Source: Escherichia phage Gostya9
Sequence record: NC_047979.1
Strand: one strand, 5' to 3'
DNA: 64,000 nucleotides
The notes beneath the pieces are model-generated. The model worked only from the letters and a program-made list of their open reading frames with translations, was not told the DNA's origin and made no database searches. Made by a program: the position numbers and the translations under genes. Shown piece by piece: positions 51,109 through 63,033 of this stretch; the stretch's first letter is position 1; every line of letters starts with the position of its first letter.

Positions 51109-52503
51109 TTAACCACCTGCTGTTACAGTAATCTGCTTAGTGCCTTTAACTCCAGAACCATCTTTAGCAGTAGCTTCTATGGTTACTACACCAGTTTTAC
51201 TAGCATCTGCTGTTAACAGTCCTGCTGCACTGATAGTAGCTGCGTCACCAGCAGTGATAGCCCAAGTAACTTCCTTATTCTGTGCAGAAGAAGGAGTAAC
51301 TTCAACACTCATTTGGAGAGTAGCCGAGTTGTTTACTGTAGTAACATCACCAGCAGATTTAACAGTAATTGCGGTTACAGCATCAGTAGACCCATCACCA
51401 TTAACAATCAAGTTATTAATAGTTGTTTTAGTATACTTGTTAGAAAATCCAAGATAACCTTCGTCACCAGTATCCAAATCTGTAGGAATAGCCTTAAATT
51501 CCACTGAGGTACCAAGTACATCATCAGTTTCAATAGTAGGAATATTAACGTGCGCCTGTTTAGCTACTAGAATAGCTGCAGGACGTTCTTCGTCATATTC
51601 ACCACCAAGTACCAGAGCGATTTCGAAGCGGTTAACTACTTTCAGAGTTTTGATAAGATCTTTATACAGTTCCATAGAACCAAGAGATTTATCATTCAGA
51701 TAAGCAGTTAATGAACCCGTTAACTCAAACGCACCAGTAAATGAACCGATAGGAATATTTACACGGGACATAATATTTGGGGTTAGATATGTGATGTTGT
51801 TATTAACGGTAAAAGTACCACCAGTAATAGGTATGTCATATGCCTTACCAGAATCCATATCCTTAATTTTCAGGATAGTTAACTTGTTCTTAATGTAAGA
51901 ACTCTGAATAGTCATATAAGTTTCATCATCAATACCTAGCGCATCTGGATCAAATGGTTGCTCATCCAGTGGGATTAGCTGATTACCATTACCAGACCAA
52001 GTTACACGACCAATATCTTCAATATCAACGTTAACTTCTGCCTGGTTGATCTGGCAAGAGTCAATGTAACTCCACGCATTGTCAGTCAGAATGTAAATAT
52101 GCAGCATAGCCAGTTCGTGATATGCGTTATCTTTGAAGTTAACCATGAAGTTAGTAGCATTATTATGTGCTCCAGTATCTCCATCAAGGTCAATAGCTTT
52201 ACCACTAGAAAGTGCATGCCATAACATATAGTCAGGAACAATTTGTTTACCAGTAGTTGTATCCTCGTATGGTAGGATATAGGTGGAAAAGCTCCACTCA
52301 GCCGCGTTCAAGGAATCGTTAAAACGTTTAGAACCACGAGTAGGACGCGGACCAGCTTCGTTAACAGTAATATCTGTTGAGTTACTGTCCTGACCCCAAG
52401 AAATATCATCCTGAACTAGAATCTCTTGCGTGTTGGTCGTATCATGACCAGTCTTAACCGTAGACACGAAGATTCGAGTATTACGTAATAGTTGTAAAGA
52501 CAT
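51109..52503 (-). CDS. Tail tube protein with C-terminal Ig-like domain (pb6-like)
   Basis: 464 aa; optimal-codon rich; C-terminal about 80 aa is Ig-like (TVEVTPSSAQNKEVTWAITAGDAATISAAGLLTA...GVVTIEATAKDGSG). Confidence 0.75.
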   Translation of the reverse strand: MSLQLLRNTRIFVSTVKTGHDTTNTQEILVQDDISWGQDSNSTDITVNEAGPRPTRGSKRFNDSLNAAEWSFSTYILPYEDTTTGKQIVPDYMLWHALSSGKAIDLDGDTGAHNNATNFMVNFKDNAYHELAMLHIYILTDNAWSYIDSCQINQAEVNVDIEDIGRVTWSGNGNQLIPLDEQPFDPDALGIDDETYMTIQSSYIKNKLTILKIKDMDSGKAYDIPITGGTFTVNNNITYLTPNIMSRVNIPIGSFTGAFELTGSLTAYLNDKSLGSMELYKDLIKTLKVVNRFEIALVLGGEYDEERPAAILVAKQAHVNIPTIETDDVLGTSVEFKAIPTDLDTGDEGYLGFSNKYTKTTINNLIVNGDGSTDAVTAITVKSAGDVTTVNNSATLQMSVEVTPSSAQNKEVTWAITAGDAATISAAGLLTADASKTGVVTIEATAKDGSGVKGTKQITVTAGG

Positions 52504-55754: not shown

Positions 55755-56387
55755 TTATTCTTTAACGTAGCCTAAAGCTATCGCAAGTTTTTCTAGTTCA
55801 GAAAGATTACGTTCTTGAGCTGGGACAGCTTTAGAACTTATTGCAGTAAAAGATTTACGCCATTCAGTATAATCATGACCATTCATACTCTTAGCGAGAT
55901 TGAATGTTGAGTCCTGATTACAAGGTACAGAAACTACCGAAACTTCGTATAGTTCTAAATCTTTAATAATAAATATATCAGTAGCTTCATCCCATTCTGC
56001 ATCTAGGCAGCGGAATCCGATACTAAAAGTTTTCAGTACACCGTTTTTAATTAGTGAAAAGATAGCTGGGTCAGAACTTTCATAGATCTCACATTCAATT
56101 TCGAGACCCATTTCAGTAGGGTTAAGATCAATACACTTACCGATTGGACGACGATGATCGTGTCCGAAAAGAATAATCGGGTTTTTCATGTAGTTAGTAA
56201 GTGCATTAGACGTTTTCCACGCAGAAGCAGGAATTACATCACCAGCGCGATCTTTACTAATTGTATTAGCGAATCCACGGATTTTTACAACGCCCTCTTT
56301 GGATTCGCTATCAATAGATTTAATATAAGCATCTAAATGAACGGGTGCTGATTTTAACTTGTTATAGTCAATAGCAGCTTGTGTCAT
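55755..56387 (-). CDS. Prohead protease (HK97 / S78 family)
   Basis: 210 aa; N-terminal block KIRGFANTISKDRAGDVIPASAWK resembles the S78 signature; sits between portal and capsid genes. Confidence 0.7.
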   Translation of the reverse strand: MTQAAIDYNKLKSAPVHLDAYIKSIDSESKEGVVKIRGFANTISKDRAGDVIPASAWKTSNALTNYMKNPIILFGHDHRRPIGKCIDLNPTEMGLEIECEIYESSDPAIFSLIKNGVLKTFSIGFRCLDAEWDEATDIFIIKDLELYEVSVVSVPCNQDSTFNLAKSMNGHDYTEWRKSFTAISSKAVPAQERNLSELEKLAIALGYVKE

Positions 56388-56390
56388 TTA

Positions 56391-57128
56391 TTAGTCTCCA
56401 GGAACAACAGGATTAACTGTCACAGCACATATAGTAGAGTCCTTGCTTACTTGCTTACTATCTGTTACAGTTACTTTATAAGAGCCGGCATCCTCAGCTG
56501 CTGCTGCAGGCTTAGTATAGGTAGCTTCTGAAGCATCCGGAATAGGAGAACCATCTTTAGTCCATGCATAAGTATATGGACCAGTACCACCAGTTGCAGT
56601 AACAGAAAGTGTTAATGCTGCTCCCTCTTCGACTGACATGCTAGCAGCTAAATCTGTAGAAAGAGTTAATGGTGGAATAACTGTAGTCACACACTCAACA
56701 GACGTTATACTAGCTTGTTTACTATCAGTAACTACTACTTTATAAGTACCAGCGTCTTCCGCAGCTGCTGTAGCTTTAGTAAAGTTAGGTCCTGATGCTT
56801 CTAGAGGAGAACCATCCTTAGTCCAAGCATACGTATATGGAGCTGTACCGCCACTAACTGTTACGCTTAGATTAATTGCCTCTCCAGTATCAACTTCCAA
56901 AGTGCTATCTAGATCCTTAGTAAAAGCCAGAGGAGGAAATGCTTTATCATAAGCCTCTACAAATTTCTTCCATACTTTACGGTTAGTATGCGCAGATGAA
57001 AGTCCTAGTTCTCTACGCAGAAAAGCATAGCTAGGAACATATTCATGCGCAGCGACCGTAGCAAAGAAGATATGAGATTCTGGCAGGTTTTCACCAAAAA
57101 TGGTCTTTAGACCATTATAATCAATCAT
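56391..57128 (-). CDS. Capsid decoration-like protein with two tandem Ig-like domains
   Basis: Two about 55-aa repeats (SVTVSGGTAPYTYAWTKDGSPLE... and SVTATGGTGPYTYAWTKDGSPIP...). Confidence 0.6.
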   Translation of the reverse strand: MIDYNGLKTIFGENLPESHIFFATVAAHEYVPSYAFLRRELGLSSAHTNRKVWKKFVEAYDKAFPPLAFTKDLDSTLEVDTGEAINLSVTVSGGTAPYTYAWTKDGSPLEASGPNFTKATAAAEDAGTYKVVVTDSKQASITSVECVTTVIPPLTLSTDLAASMSVEEGAALTLSVTATGGTGPYTYAWTKDGSPIPDASEATYTKPAAAAEDAGSYKVTVTDSKQVSKDSTICAVTVNPVVPGD

Positions 57129-58342
57129 TCTTTATCTCCCTCGGTGGAACCTTGAGGTCTACCACCTTCTTGACCAGATACACCTGTTGCAGAACCAGCA
57201 ACGTTAGCAGGAATACGAATCCTATTCATCTGCTCATCATCTAAAGGTTCAAGGTTCAGCTCTAAACGAGCTTCGTTACCAGTCATAATACCATTATTAA
57301 CCAATGAGGTTAAATGTTTAGCCTCAGCTTCTTTATCTGGTGTTAATGCAGCTACCTCCTTAGTATTAGGGGTAATCCTATAACCAAAAAAGAAAGTAAG
57401 AGAACTAGTCAGTTTGTTCAGCATAGGAATGATAGTCATATAATAGAACAATTCGATGTTTGGTCGAATATTCGCATTATTACCACCATCAATCAGTACT
57501 TGCGGAACACCAAAGGCTAGACAGATAGATTTATTAAATCCTGCGATGTCTTCCTTAAAGTCTAGATCTTTAAAAGAGGATATTTGGGAGTACGGTTTAG
57601 CTTTCATACCACCATCTAGAATCAGGACAGAAGACTGACCCGTACTAGGATTATAATCGAGTTGTAATTCTTCTTGTTTACGCTCACGCAATTTCTTGTT
57701 CAGGATTTCATCCGTTTCAAGAATAAGACCAATCACGGTTCCGTTATCTAGGAACTTCTCTTTAAAGTTAAGCATTTTAGAACGCTTCTCAAGAGAATCA
57801 ATAACAGTAGCAACACGAGATTGTCCAGAAATTTGAGAATTTGTGCCACACACGTAACTGTTATCCTTTATAAAGATAATCTCATCTACGCGATAGTTTA
57901 TCTGATTATTAAATATAAATTTTTTGATAAACTTATTGGCATCTGCCTCGACCTGCATAAGAGCGGCCGGGACGTGGTAAAGCGATGTGCCATCCCAATA
58001 GATGTATGCACAACCCTCAAAAAGTAGGTCAGTGACTACAAGTCTACGGAATGTGCTTATATCCATGAATGGATTAGGTCGTACATTTAAGAGAGTGTCT
58101 AGAGTCTTTGTTTTGACGCCATTAGCGTACGTAACAATATTATATTTATCTCCGACAGTATAAGAACACTCCGCCGCACTATCTATAACCATATTGGCAG
58201 TTCGATTGAGAATCTCAATCTTGCTATAGGCTTGTCCAGTGGTAAAAGGCTTACGGTTAGTGCGATGACTAACTGGTTCCATGTCTCTTATAATACGTTG
58301 ACCCGGATTTAGCTTTTCAGTAATCCAGCTTTTAAAACCCAT
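57125..58342 (-). CDS. Portal protein
   Basis: 405 aa directly downstream of terminase/HNH and upstream of the protease. Confidence 0.7.
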   Translation of the reverse strand: MGFKSWITEKLNPGQRIIRDMEPVSHRTNRKPFTTGQAYSKIEILNRTANMVIDSAAECSYTVGDKYNIVTYANGVKTKTLDTLLNVRPNPFMDISTFRRLVVTDLLFEGCAYIYWDGTSLYHVPAALMQVEADANKFIKKFIFNNQINYRVDEIIFIKDNSYVCGTNSQISGQSRVATVIDSLEKRSKMLNFKEKFLDNGTVIGLILETDEILNKKLRERKQEELQLDYNPSTGQSSVLILDGGMKAKPYSQISSFKDLDFKEDIAGFNKSICLAFGVPQVLIDGGNNANIRPNIELFYYMTIIPMLNKLTSSLTFFFGYRITPNTKEVAALTPDKEAEAKHLTSLVNNGIMTGNEARLELNLEPLDDEQMNRIRIPANVAGSATGVSGQEGGRPQGSTEGDKE

Positions 58343-58794
58343 TATAAGAACCTTGCGAATCCTGATTTTGTTTCAGTCTTGACTTGTGTCTTTTCTTGAG
58401 GATTCTGTAATTTGTCTTTCTGCTTTTGAACCCATGCTTTCTGTTTATCAGCAGAAAATAATGGAGGTTCTTTCGTGTAAACCTTATGTAGTAATTGGTG
58501 ATGGTGCTGGCACAATGTTACCACGTCCCTAACTAACTCATGCTCATATTTCTTGTAGAATGCTTCCCTATTTGAAAGGACGATATTCTCATCAGTGAAA
58601 TCCAGCTGGAGTTCTTTAGCAAATTTTTTTATTAGCTGAGATATAGTATGATAATGGTGAAGTTCTAGGTCTTCACTACTACCACATATAGCACAGCAAC
58701 CATCCTTACTATACCTAGATTTTATACCATCCCTCATTATAGAAATGGCATCACGTTTGTACTTAGTATTAGTGGCCATAATCCTCCAATCCAA
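58342..58794 (-). CDS. HNH endonuclease, terminase-associated
   Basis: CAICGSSEDLELHHYH...LCQHHHQLLH HNH/Zn motifs; 150 aa; between terminase and portal. Confidence 0.75.
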   Translation of the reverse strand: MDWRIMATNTKYKRDAISIMRDGIKSRYSKDGCCAICGSSEDLELHHYHTISQLIKKFAKELQLDFTDENIVLSNREAFYKKYEHELVRDVVTLCQHHHQLLHKVYTKEPPLFSADKQKAWVQKQKDKLQNPQEKTQVKTETKSGFARFL

Positions 58795-60614: not shown

Positions 60615-61096
60615 TACTTCTTACCTCCAGTAGCTAGGGAAGTAATTAAGTCCATGTAGTTTTGATCCCCAGCTCCAGCAATAATGTTATTCTGGATATT
60701 GGTCTGGTTAGCAGGAGCTCGAACGGCGGCTTTAGCTTTCTCTAGCTCTACCATCATCTTCATTTCTTCCATCTTCATTTTGTGTGCCTTCCAGAGAATA
60801 TCCATAATATCCTGGTCAGAGCCCATGCCAGTTTCTTCCAGTTCCTCTAGTTTACGCTTAATAACTTCGTCTAGAACCCCAAACAAACGATCCCTATTAC
60901 GGAATCCACTCTCCATAAAAATATCGTTTAAGTAGTTCTTAACTTCACTACGATTCATAATATCTCGAAAAGCAATTTCAGACATTCCAAGACTACGTGC
61001 GGCAGAAGGCACATCACTGCCGCACTGTAAATAAGCTTCAATCACATCCATCCCTTCAGGGGACATAAGATCTGGTACTAATACATCATTTGCCAT
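60614..61096 (-). CDS. Putative terminase small subunit
   Basis: 160 aa immediately upstream of terminase large with overlapping stop/start; HTH-like [17 protein letters not shown]. Confidence 0.5.
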
Positions 61097-63033
61097 TATG
61101 TTAACCTCTGTATATTTAATCTTAGCTTAGGAAATTGGATGTACGGCGGTTTGCCTGTGGAAACTCCACCAACCGTTAGAGGAGTAGCACGAGAAGTTCC
61201 CCAGAACTCCAGATTACCAGTACTGCCATTCTTCCTTATATAGTATTGGAACCTGCTCTTTGGTTTACCACCACTAGAGCTAGAAGCCCCTGAGTAGCTA
61301 AAAGCATTTTCCACATAGATAGGAACGTAGACGTTAGGGTTTAAAACTATTATTTGGTGAGATACAGCATCACCTTTATCATAGTCAAATTTGGTTAATC
61401 TTTTGCTAACCCCTGCCGGACTGTATATAGAGCTATTTAAACTCCAGAGATAACCCATTGAAGGATCTCCATTAGGGGAGCATAGGTCATTTCCCATCCA
61501 TTCTATGCTCATAAGCACTACTGTAGTACCAGATGCCGGTAATCCCATCCCAACACTACTAATCATTTTTGTACCACCAGTGGCTATCTCGTGTAGCCAC
61601 TCGTTATCTCCTATAATTACATTACTAGCCTTATTACCAGTAAAGAGCTGTAGAGGCCTAACTGTAGGACTCCAAATATCTACATTATTTATAGAGATTT
61701 TAGGACCCGAGCTATTAATAGCAATACTGCTATTGGTGGGGAATTTGTAAAGCCCAATATTCCATTGTGTTGTAGAACCTATGGAAGTTTCAACGTTTGA
61801 AGCTGCCCAGCTACCTGAACCTCCGGATCCGGTAGTACCATAAAACCTGAAAGCGCCCCCATCCGGTAACGCAGTGGCAGAAGATGCCTGAGTATTACTG
61901 CAAAAGTAGGTATTGCTTATACTAGGAGTACCTGTACTAACCGCTGATAACATTTCATAGGATGTGCTGCGCAAATTGACACCTTTTATATTAAAGTCAG
62001 TCCTACTAACTTTTATATCACTACCCGTAAAAAGGTTTTGAGCTGTATATCCACCAGTATTACTGAATGTTACGTTTAGAACTAGGTATTCCATACGTAC
62101 AGGGGTCATCCCAGCGTAGGTAGCTTCAGTAAACCCAGAAATTAATCCATTCCTAACATGGCGTTCAATCCCAGCACGAACAAATTTAGACATAGGTACA
62201 GAAGCATATAAATCTGGAATACTATTAGCGTAATAATCTATATTCCTAACAGATGAGGCTGTAGTACCTGCATATGTATTTTTTATCCCTGTTAGATTTC
62301 TGGCCCCACCTGCCCTAACGAATACAGTATCATAGGTGCTACTAGATGGGCCTAGGGGATACATATAATCTGGGTTTATCAGAAAGTTTTTTTCCATATC
62401 ACGAATATTTCCTGTGTATGGATTACTGCCTCTAGGAAGCCAATTCCTATTAGGTGTCCTTTTATACGGGTATTGAGACCATACACCAGTAATAGTAGCC
62501 CCCGAAGCTATATCAAAAGCATACGCTGGGTCATAATCCTCTCCAGCCTCAACATTAAATATAGTATAGCCACCAGTACCTGCCACACCAATTCTATCTG
62601 CTACAGTAACTCCCGAAGCAGCCGTATAGTACCCCCATTCTAAGTTGAGATCAAAGGATAAAGACCCACCATATAGACAGGACACACCTATTAAATCTAA
62701 GTCATGCCAAAGGTAGCTAGAAGCTCTGGCCATCCCAAACATCTGATGGTAATATTCAGTACCACCGCTGTTCTTACATACTAAAACAGGAATAACAACG
62801 TTGGCTCTATTGGCCAGGATAGTACGTAGTTCGGTTGGAAGTGTACCAATGAAGTAACCATCACCACCAGCACCTAAGTTTACCGTATAACGTGTCTTCA
62901 CGAAAAGATGTGGCATGTCTGAGTGAAATATAGTATTCCCGTTTGGCGTGTTATGTATGTTAACATCTCCCCCAGAAGCCGTATTGAGGGAAAGGACAGT
63001 TTTCGTTCCTATTCTTCCGGCAAAGAAGCTCAT
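61096..63033 (-). CDS. Putative receptor-binding tail protein (pb5-like position)
   Basis: 645-aa Gly/Ser/Thr/Asn-rich beta-type protein at the head of the late block; size and position match the T5 receptor-binding protein as I recall it. No sequence comparison was possible. Confidence 0.5.

What the first reader, a model, noticed from the sequence alone, without database searches (positions are those of the whole stretch)
56391..57128. Tandem duplicated Ig-like domain protein between portal and protease, plus Ig-like tail on the tube protein
The 245-aa protein carries two about 55-aa Ig-like repeats with near-identical cores (GGT(A/G)PYTYAWTKDGSP). The tail tube protein also ends in an Ig-like domain. 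Surface Ig-like domains are thought to mediate weak adherence to carbohydrates; the duplication suggests recent domain expansion.
Basis: seen in the sequence. Interest (0 to 1): 0.35.

Follow-up and report, generated by a model that had tools for sequence, protein, structure and literature searches.

The report
Two-Ig capsid decoration protein (pb10)
This gene encodes the head-decoration protein of a T5-like coliphage, with one extra immunoglobulin-like domain compared with phage T5; the architecture is real but already published for the sister phage DT57C, and the two domains are old, diverged modules rather than a recent duplication.

Summary
ORF 56391..57128 (-) encodes a 245-aa protein with two tandem Ig-like repeats. 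They are about 87 aa each, not about 55, and share a near-identical 16-aa core. The protein is the pb10-type capsid decoration protein of a T5-like phage. It is 100% identical to the Gostya9 protein and 97.6% identical to the DT57C one. It has a Phage_pb10_N capsid anchor (Pfam E 9e-37) followed by two I-set Ig domains (AlphaFold pLDDT 89; best fold matches are tandem Ig structures). The extra domain was already described in the 2023 DT57C cryo-EM paper, and the tail tube Ig domain is the known pb6 Big_2 domain.

"Recent domain expansion" is not supported. The two domains are 60% identical in protein and 66% in DNA, with dS about 1.25. That is as diverged as orthologues from different phage genera. 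Domain 1 is 82-89% identical to the only Ig domain of other T5-like phages ("A" type). Domain 2 is 92-93% identical to the T5-type domain ("B" type). The A+B tandem occurs in 10 of 386 related phage records. Single-domain chimeras (A head, B tail) with a breakpoint in the conserved core suggest that domain number changes by recombination.

The glycan-adhesion role remains an inference. The finding is already known and of low interest.

The parts
56391..57128 (-). Gene for the pb10-type capsid decoration protein (DCP, 'dec'), 245 aa
   Evidence: ORF list. Pfam Phage_pb10_N plus two Ig stretches. PDB 8zvi T5 decoration protein E 1.4e-85. phrog_2973 'Hoc-like head decoration' E 9e-108. 100% identical to the Gostya9 protein AWN08786.1 / YP_009802296.1.
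56937..57128 (-). N-terminal alpha-helical capsid-binding domain plus short linker (aa 1-64)
   Evidence: Pfam PF21393 covers aa 2-60, E 8.9e-37. Aa 1-67 align to T5 pb10 aa 1-67 (PDB 8zvi, 5lxl). Helices H4-11, H18-25, H34-40 and H49-62 in the model.
56676..56936 (-). Ig-like domain 1 (aa 65-151), 'A-type' module; this is the domain absent from T5 pb10
   Evidence: Clean 243-nt gap in the T5-type genes in the DNA alignment. 82-89% identical to the sole Ig domain of KenyaK42, VAH1, Stitch and SE3, but 60% to D2. pLDDT about 89-96.
56409..56675 (-). Ig-like domain 2 (aa 152-240), 'B-type' module, equivalent to the T5 pb10 C-terminal Ig domain
   Evidence: Aligns to PDB 5lxk (NMR Ig domain of T5 pb10), E 2.7e-47. 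92-93% identical to the ECOP18 and AKFV33 domain. pLDDT 95-97.
56805..56852 (-). Conserved core GGTAPYTYAWTKDGSP of domain 1 (aa 93-108)
   Evidence: Coordinates. Family-wide conserved motif.
56544..56591 (-). Conserved core GGTGPYTYAWTKDGSP of domain 2 (aa 180-195)
   Evidence: Coordinates. G180, G181, Y185, Y187 and W189 are invariant in 35 homologues.
57125..58342 (-). Portal protein gene; its TGA stop overlaps the decoration gene's ATG (ATGA)
   Evidence: Pfam Phage_portal E 3.6e-50. Overlap read from the sequence.
55755..56387 (-). Prohead protease gene, starting 3 nt after the decoration gene's stop
   Evidence: Pfam Peptidase_S78 E 1e-18. Sequence.
51109..52503 (-). Tail tube protein pb6 with C-terminal Big_2 Ig-like domain (aa 375-452)
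   Evidence: Big_2 E 2.2e-15. Full-length match to T5 pb6 structures 7qg9 and 5ngj, E about 1e-285. No significant sequence similarity to the pb10 Ig domains (E 0.31).

Best explanation
The ORF encodes the capsid decoration protein of a T5-like siphophage. It is the orthologue of T5 pb10 and is identical to the Gostya9 protein.

How it works. The N-terminal helical domain (aa 1-64) anchors one monomer at the centre of each capsid hexamer. This was shown experimentally for T5 and seen by cryo-EM in DT57C; here it is inferred from 92-98% identity. Two tandem I-set Ig-like domains project from the capsid into the solvent. This doubles the reach of the displayed Ig module compared with T5. What the Ig domains bind is not known. 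The most likely role is weak, multivalent adhesion to surface glycans (host envelope or mucus), which is an inference.

How the architecture arose. It is not a recent in-gene duplication. It combines two long-diverged Ig cassettes. The 'A' module is the one carried alone by Epseptimavirus and some Tequintavirus phages. The 'B' module is the one carried alone by T5. Both share the same junction in every two-domain phage examined. Domain number at this locus appears to change by recombination at the conserved core or linker.
For: Identity of the protein.
- Pfam Phage_pb10_N E 8.9e-37 plus two Ig stretches.
- PDB 8zvi, 5lxl and 5lxk (T5 decoration protein), E 1e-85 to 1e-36.
- phrog_2973 E 9e-108.
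- Synteny portal - dec - protease - major capsid protein, with 99.3% DNA identity to DT57C and DT571/2.
- Exact match to the Gostya9 protein.

Published mechanism.
[quoted passage not shown] Density for the N-terminal domain sits at hexamer centres (PMC10713586).

Fold. The AlphaFold2 model has pLDDT 89.4, and its best PDB matches are tandem Ig structures.

Origin.
- The identity matrix separates A and B types. D1 is 82-89% identical to sole A-type domains, D2 is 92-93% identical to sole B-type domains, and A against B is 48-63%.
- dS between D1 and D2 is 1.25.
- The junction TTV(I/T)PPLTLS is the same in all two-domain forms examined.
- The junction-spanning DNA is found in 10 of 386 related records.
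- P0033 is an A-head/B-tail chimera. Its best breakpoint against the two-domain P0026 lies at nt 312-332 (WTKNGSP), overlapping the longest exact D1/D2 match of P0026 (17 nt).
Against: - No binding partner for either Ig domain has been shown for any pb10. The adhesion role is a hypothesis taken from T4 Hoc.
- In DT57C the Ig domains appear only at a low contour level and were not modelled, so their extended geometry is inferred.
- The order of events is not resolved. Either two alleles fused, or an ancient tandem underwent repeated losses. Synonymous sites are saturated.
- The A/B chimeras could come from ordinary allelic crossover between single-domain genes rather than from collapse of a tandem. 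Only two A-head/B-tail chimeras and no B-head/A-tail chimera were seen, which is too few to decide.
Confidence: 0.9

Rival explanations
1. Recent intragenic tandem duplication of the single T5-type Ig domain. One domain was copied in place and the copies have barely diverged.
For: Two adjacent in-register repeats with a 16-aa core that differs at one residue.
Against: The copies are 60% identical in protein and 66% in DNA. Third codon positions are 50% identical and the longest exact DNA match is 12 nt. dS is 1.25. D1 is closer to the sole domain of other phages (82-89%) than to D2. The core is invariant across the whole family, including homologues only 43-52% identical.
Confidence: 0.03
2. 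The two-domain A-B gene is the ancestral state, from an ancient tandem duplication that predates the Tequintavirus/Epseptimavirus split. Today's single-domain A, B and A/B-chimeric genes are then products of repeated in-register deletions.
For: - D1 against Epseptimavirus A-type domains has dN 0.13, the same as the N-domain between the two genera. D1 against D2 has dN 0.30, so the A/B split looks older than the genus split.
- The A-head/B-tail chimera P0033 matches both halves of the two-domain P0026 at 96% overall, with 96-99% identical flanks.
- The sole domain of KenyaK42 and VAH1 is 98-99% identical to D1 of vB_Sen_H9.
- A shared ACAGTTA sequence at both domain ends would give exactly the A-single C-terminus.
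Against: - Only 10 of 386 records, and 5 of about 32 clusters at 90% identity, have two domains.
- The more distant pb10 homologues with an I-set-like Ig module each have a single such domain (P0009, P0019, P0060).
- Clean A-only and B-only forms need crossovers at the very edges of the repeat, where DNA homology is poor (CCTCCTCTG against CCACCATTA).
- dS is saturated, so the relative dating is weak.
Confidence: 0.3
3. The two-domain gene arose once by illegitimate recombination between two co-infecting T5-like phages that carried different single-domain alleles (A and B). It then spread by homologous exchange of the cassette.
For: - Both A and B circulate as single-domain alleles within the same genus, next to nearly identical N-domains.
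- The pattern is mosaic. Between the window and vB_Sen_H9 the N-domain has dS 0.00, but the Ig modules have dS 0.18-0.24.
- One shared junction points to a single origin.
- Two-domain forms are rare.
- Other cassettes (FN3, Big_2) occupy the same site in relatives, so this locus exchanges modules.
Against: No donor pair is identified. The Tequintavirus A modules are as diverged from Epseptimavirus A (dS 1.2) as the rest of the gene is, so A is not a recent import from that genus.
Confidence: 0.55
4. The protein is a tail fibre, neck whisker or major tail subunit, as many GenBank records name its orthologues.
For: Annotations such as 'tail fiber protein', 'neck whiskers protein', 'fibritin' and 'putative tail protein' sit on orthologues. 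The Ig part also matches Ig domains of tail proteins of other phages (phrog_158, phrog_3995).
Against: Those matches cover only the promiscuous Ig domains. The N-terminal domain is the pb10 capsid anchor. pb10 has been located on T5 capsid hexamers (PMC5292684), and the DT57C orthologue (97.6% identical) was seen there by cryo-EM (PMC10713586).
Confidence: 0.02

Closest known systems
Decoration protein (DCP, gp123, 'dec') of Escherichia phage DT57C / DT571/2, and the identical-length protein of phage Gostya9
   Same: 245 aa with the same architecture: pb10 N-domain, extra Ig domain, then the T5-type Ig domain. 97.6% identical to DT57C and 100% to Gostya9. Same gene order. The extra divergent Ig-like domain is stated explicitly in PMC10713586.
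   Different: Six amino-acid differences from DT57C. Nothing differs structurally.
Phage T5 decoration protein pb10 (PDB 5LXL, 5LXK, 8ZVI)
   Same: [quoted passage not shown] Same locus between portal and protease.
   Different: T5 pb10 is 164 aa with one Ig domain. The window protein has an 81-aa net insertion (domain 1, A-type) and a shorter Pro-rich linker: FPPL instead of PPAPPAPPL.
Hoc of T4-like phages (RB49 Hoc, PDB 3SHS)
   Same: A monomeric decoration protein at hexamer centres that displays tandem Ig-like domains. Sequence match E 1.8e-7, and a fold match.
   Different: The order is reversed. In Hoc the Ig domains are N-terminal and the capsid-binding part is C-terminal (PMC5292684). 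Hoc has three Ig domains plus a fourth domain, and its capsid-binding domain is unrelated. The similarity is confined to the Ig modules.
Ig-like domains appended to phage structural proteins (Fraser, Maxwell and Davidson 2006/2007; lambda gpV C-terminal domain; T5 pb6 Big_2 domain)
   Same: Accessory, surface-exposed Ig-like modules of variable number on capsid and tail proteins. They are proposed to bind carbohydrates weakly (cited).
   Different: The pb6 domain in this window is a Big_2 domain with no detectable sequence similarity to the pb10 I-set domains. No programmed frameshift is involved here; the gene is one continuous ORF.

Membership tests
pb10-type capsid decoration protein (Pfam PF21393 Phage_pb10_N family; phrog_2973) | N-terminal alpha-helical capsid-binding domain of about 60-70 aa | tested here: met
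   PF21393 covers aa 2-60 over the full profile (1-59/59), 125.7 bits against a cutoff of 27. Aligns to PDB 5lxl and 8zvi. Four helices in the model.
pb10-type capsid decoration protein (Pfam PF21393 Phage_pb10_N family; phrog_2973) | C-terminal solvent-exposed Ig-like domain or domains after a Pro-rich linker | tested here: met
   Two I-set/Ig_3/Ig_2 stretches. D2 aligns to the solved Ig domain 5lxk. High-confidence beta-sandwich models match tandem Ig structures.
pb10-type capsid decoration protein (Pfam PF21393 Phage_pb10_N family; phrog_2973) | Gene located between the portal and prohead protease genes of a T5-like head module | tested here: met
   Portal at 57125..58342 and protease at 55755..56387. 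The same order occurs in DT57C, VAH1, Stitch, ECOP18, AKFV33, SE3 and IrisVonRoten.
pb10-type capsid decoration protein (Pfam PF21393 Phage_pb10_N family; phrog_2973) | Binds as a monomer at the centre of major-capsid-protein hexamers of the mature T=13 capsid | not testable with these tools
   Shown for T5 (PMC5292684) and seen in DT57C (PMC10713586). Inferred here from sequence identity.
Immunoglobulin I-set-like fold | Beta-sandwich of about 85-90 aa with the D-x-G-x-Y motif before strand F | tested here: met
   I-set E 2.8e-13. EDAGTYKV and EDAGSYKV are present in D1 and D2. Foldseek probability 1.00 to titin, Sidekick, NCAM and Robo Ig tandems.
Recent tandem duplication | Copies nearly identical at the DNA level, with low synonymous divergence | tested here: not met
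   66% DNA identity, pS 0.61, dS 1.25, longest exact match 12 nt.
T4 Hoc family | N-terminal Ig domains followed by a C-terminal capsid-binding domain homologous to Hoc | tested here: not met
   Domain order is reversed and the anchor is PF21393. The similarity to 3shs covers only aa 68-228, the Ig part.
Glycan- or mucus-adhering phage Ig domain (BAM model) | Demonstrated binding of the Ig domain to glycans or mucin | not testable with these tools
   The pb10 authors offer this only as a proposal. No assay exists for pb10 in the papers read.

The most novel reading that the evidence does not exclude
The pb10 locus of T5-like phages is a recombination-driven cassette site. An old A-B Ig tandem is repeatedly built and collapsed by unequal crossover at the conserved GGTxPYTYAWTKxG core. 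This would generate the A-only, B-only, A+B and A/B-chimeric capsid surfaces seen in nature. It would be a simple way to vary the capsid's display of Ig modules, and the two-domain state might even be ancestral rather than derived.
Probability: 0.3. Interest if true: 0.35.

Novelty: already known. Interest (0 to 1): 0.15.

Why it matters
It matters little as a discovery. The protein, its location on the capsid and its extra Ig domain are already published for DT57C, and the identical Gostya9 protein is already annotated.

There are three modest points of value.
1. The "recent duplication" reading is corrected. The two domains are ancient, separately circulating modules.
2. The locus is a clear example of cassette exchange on a conserved capsid anchor: I-set A, I-set B, the A+B tandem, A/B chimeras, FN3 and Big_2 all occur on the same N-domain. 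T5 pb10 is already used to display antigens on capsid-like particles (PMC10766600, listed). A naturally tolerated two-domain variant shows that the anchor accepts longer cargo.
3. Many GenBank orthologues are misnamed as tail fibre, neck whisker or fibritin.

Tried and rejected
- **Word-indexed homology search with the 69-aa N-domain alone.** It returned only 7 truncated proteins and was uninformative. The exhaustive HMMER search with the same query gave 16 representatives and showed the variety of C-terminal cassettes. One hit, P0015 (2161 aa), is a low-complexity repeat protein and was rejected as spurious.
- **Single-sequence AlphaFold2.** Mean pLDDT was 52.8, so the model was discarded. 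The run with an alignment was used instead.
- **Programmed frameshift adding the Ig domain** (known from other phage Ig domains). Rejected: the gene is one continuous ORF.
- **pb6 tail Ig domain and pb10 Ig domains as copies of each other.** Rejected: BLASTP E 0.31, and they belong to different Pfam families, Big_2 and I-set.
- **Fixed-register breakpoint test on chimera P0027 against P0024 and vB_Sen_H9.** It failed because the C-terminal tails differ in length. P0027's chimeric nature therefore rests on the protein-level head and tail identities: head 96% to A, tail 85% to B.
- **Assembly collapse as the source of the chimeras.** Judged unlikely. D1 and D2 share at most 9-17 nt of exact match, which is shorter than I would expect an assembler's k-mers to be (my own estimate, not a tool result). 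It was not formally excluded.
- **tRNA scan of the window.** None found.

Full report
**What is in the sequence**

ORF 56391..57128 on the minus strand encodes a 245-aa protein. Its start codon overlaps the stop of the upstream gene (ATGA), with a GGAG sequence 8 nt upstream. That upstream gene is the portal gene (57125..58342, Pfam Phage_portal E 3.6e-50). The ORF ends 3 nt before the prohead protease gene (55755..56387, Peptidase_S78 E 1e-18). The major capsid protein gene follows.

D1 (aa 65-151) and D2 (aa 152-240) align over 88 positions. The local score is 267, against 33.7 +/- 6.4 for 1000 shuffles. The quoted core GGT(A/G)PYTYAWTKDGSP lies at aa 93-108 and aa 180-195. The repeat unit is about 87-89 aa, not about 55.

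**What the protein is**

Pfam finds the Phage_pb10_N domain at aa 2-60 (E 8.9e-37, full profile) followed by two Ig stretches: Ig_3 1.3e-17, Ig_2 2e-16 and I-set 2.8e-13. A search of PDB sequences returns the phage T5 decoration protein pb10.
- 8zvi matches at E 1.4e-85.
- The NMR structure of the N-terminal domain, 5lxl, matches at E 1.4e-35.
- The NMR structure of the C-terminal Ig domain, 5lxk, matches at E 2.7e-47.

Window aa 1-67 align to pb10 aa 1-67. Window aa 151-244 align to pb10 aa 70-163. D1 is therefore the inserted segment. PHROGs gives "Hoc-like head decoration" (phrog_2973, E 9e-108).

The surrounding 2.7 kb is 99.3% identical to Escherichia phages DT57C and DT571/2. The protein is 100% identical to the "decorating protein" of phage Gostya9 (AWN08786.1 / YP_009802296.1) and shares a 90% cluster with the DT57C protein. 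Neighbouring genes make up the canonical T5 head and tail module: terminase subunits, nicking endonuclease, portal, protease, major capsid protein, adaptor, tail completion protein, terminator, tube protein pb6 and receptor-binding protein.

**Fold**

It is not met. A single-sequence AlphaFold2 run was poor (pLDDT 52.8). With a 35-sequence alignment the model has mean pLDDT 89.4, with 95-97 over most of both beta domains and 69-85 over the helical N-domain. Foldseek against the PDB returns tandem Ig structures at probability 1.00: titin I67-I69, Sidekick, NCAM, Robo and Dscam. RB49 Hoc is also among the matches.

**Already published**

The cryo-EM paper on DT57C (Ayala et al., Nat Commun 2023, PMC10713586) describes this architecture. 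[quoted passage not shown] Density for the N-domain sits at the centre of each hexamer, and the Ig domains appear at a lower contour level.

For T5, Vernhes et al. (PMC5292684) showed several things.
- The Ig domain is mobile and exposed to solvent.
- pb10 protects against heat-induced DNA release under some conditions.
- Adhesion to bacterial carbohydrates or mucus is only a proposal.

**The tail tube protein**

ORF 51109..52503 (-) matches T5 pb6 over its full length (7qg9 and 5ngj, E about 1e-285). It has a Big_2 domain at aa 375-452. This is the known pb6 decoration domain. It has no significant sequence similarity to the pb10 Ig domains (E 0.31). The two features are therefore independent acquisitions of different Ig families.

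**Is the duplication recent? No**

- D1 and D2 are 60% identical in protein (53/88) and 66% in DNA.
- Identity by codon position is 76%, 73% and 50%. Only 26 of the 53 conserved residues use the same codon. The longest exact DNA match is 12 nt.
- Nei-Gojobori estimates are pS 0.61, dS 1.25 and dN 0.30. This synonymous divergence equals that between this gene and its Epseptimavirus orthologues in Stitch and SE3 (dS 1.07-1.23).
- The near-identical core is a family signature. G180, G181, Y185, Y187 and W189 are invariant in all 35 aligned pb10 homologues, including ones only 43-52% identical overall. The motif also draws Pfam SprB-repeat matches.

**Where each domain belongs**

A tblastn search with D1 alone showed that it is 80-88% identical to the only Ig domain of pb10 in many other T5-like phages. 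I extracted the genes from ten named phages. They fall into two classes.
- The "A" module begins LAFTK. It is the sole domain in KenyaK42 and VAH1 (Tequintavirus) and in Stitch and SE3 (Epseptimavirus).
- The "B" module begins LTLS. It is the sole domain in T5-type phages such as ECOP18, IrisVonRoten and AKFV33.

The window's D1 is 82-89% identical to A modules. Its D2 is 92-93% identical to B modules. A against B is 48-63%.

All two-domain proteins examined are A followed by B, with the same junction TTV(I/T)PPLTLS. These are the window/Gostya9, DT57C, GEC_vB_N5 and vB_Sen_H9 proteins, together with the metagenomic clusters P0024, P0025 and P0026.

A 180-nt probe across the junction is covered in full in only 10 of 386 matching phage records. 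Those records are DT57C, DT571/2, GE_vB_N5/GEC_vB_N5, 3sent1, GE_vB_N8 and vB_Sen_H9. Among clusters at 90% identity, 5 have two domains, against about 27 with one.

More distant members of the family carry other cassettes on the same anchor.
- FN3 occurs in SE8, P0057 and P0059.
- One to several Big_2 domains occur in P0011, P0014, P0018, P0022, P0013 (414 aa) and Sugarland.

**Evidence that domain number changes by recombination**

Two single-domain proteins, P0027 and P0033, have an A-type head (96-100% identical) and a B-type tail (85-92% identical). Both come from phage contigs of 103 kb and 109 kb. No clear B-head/A-tail form was seen among about 27 single-domain clusters.

At the DNA level, P0033 fits a recombinant of the two-domain gene P0026. 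The recombinant model needs 18 mismatches in 483 nt. The breakpoint window is nt 312-332 (WTKNGSP), which overlaps the longest exact D1/D2 match of P0026 (17 nt). The flanks are 96-99% identical. This is what in-register unequal crossover in an A-B tandem would produce. An ordinary crossover between A-only and B-only alleles could give the same product.

The sole domain of KenyaK42 and VAH1 is 98-99% identical to D1 of vB_Sen_H9. So switches between one and two domains have happened on a short time scale, even though A and B themselves are old.

The locus is mosaic. Between the window and vB_Sen_H9 the N-domain has dS 0.00, but the Ig modules have dS 0.18-0.24.

**Which came first is not settled**

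A single fusion of two circulating alleles fits three observations: the two-domain form is rare, the more distant I-set-type homologues (P0009, P0019, P0060) have a single Ig domain, and the junction is unique. An ancient tandem with repeated losses fits a different observation: dN between A and B (0.30) exceeds dN between the genera (0.13), while Tequintavirus A against Epseptimavirus A shows the genus-level value. Saturated synonymous sites prevent a firm choice. I put the fusion scenario at about 0.55 and the ancient tandem at about 0.3.

**Mechanism, with status of each step**

1. The protein is a structural capsid decoration protein. This is shown for the 97.6%-identical DT57C protein and for T5, and inferred here.
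2. The N-domain anchors it at hexamer centres. This is shown in T5 and inferred here from 92-98% identity.
3. Two Ig domains in series project outward on a short linker. The fold is predicted with high confidence. The extended geometry is inferred.
4. The Ig domains mediate weak multivalent adhesion to glycans. This is a hypothesis only.

**Verdict**

The protein is the known pb10-type decoration protein with a known extra Ig domain. "Recent domain expansion" is refuted. The cassette structure of the locus and the A/B chimeras are a small addition of modest interest.

Noticed in passing
L013:1501-1983 (P0033) and L015:1501-1986 (P0027), compared with L014:1501-2247 (P0026): Single-domain pb10 genes that are A-head/B-tail chimeras. 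For P0033 the breakpoint maps to nt 312-332 in the conserved WTKNGSP core, where the two domains of the two-domain relative share a 17-nt exact match. This fits either unequal-crossover collapse of the tandem or an allelic crossover.
   Followed up: partly
L011:601-1089 (Salmonella phage SE8); P0057, P0059, P0010; L012:901-1617 (Klebsiella phage Sugarland); P0013, P0018, P0022: The same pb10 N-terminal anchor carries entirely different display cassettes in relatives: one FN3 domain, or one to about four Big_2 domains (proteins of 158-414 aa). The locus behaves as a module-exchange site.
   Followed up: partly
window 56391-57128 compared with L006 (vB_Sen_H9): Mosaic divergence within one gene. 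The N-domain has dS 0.00, while both Ig modules have dS 0.18-0.24. This implies recombination breakpoints near the linker.
   Followed up: partly
GenBank records under hits H2-H60 and H101-H160; L003 (GEC_vB_N5): Orthologues of this capsid decoration protein are annotated as tail fiber, neck whiskers, fibritin, major tail subunit or putative tail protein. In GEC_vB_N5 the gene is not annotated at all; only small, probably spurious ORFs are called across it.
   Followed up: no
window 58342-58794 (-): A 150-aa HNH-like protein lies between the portal and terminase genes. It is annotated in DT57C as sciA, a nicking site-specific endonuclease, and relatives carry Pfam PF26848 Phage_T5_Nicking_endo. 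This is the enzyme class linked to the single-strand nicks of T5 DNA.
   Followed up: no
window 61096-63033 (-): A 645-aa receptor-binding tail protein (phrog_4815, E 5e-127) lies next to the small terminase gene, as in T5-like phages. Its receptor specificity was not examined.
   Followed up: no
window 56805-56852 and 56544-56591: The conserved GGTxPYTYAWTKDGSP core also draws Pfam SprB-repeat matches (E 2.5e-12). The full protein draws many SprB, PKD and Ig repeat proteins of Bacteroidota in the homology search. The motif therefore belongs to a very wide superfamily of surface-repeat domains.
   Followed up: no
P0015: A 2161-aa highly repetitive protein matched the pb10 N-domain query through a short HxFFSTL-like repeat. 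It was judged a spurious low-complexity hit.
   Followed up: partly
window 1-64000: ARAGORN found no tRNA genes in the 64-kb window, so the window does not include a tRNA cluster such as T5-like phages carry (the latter from my own knowledge, not tested here).
   Followed up: no
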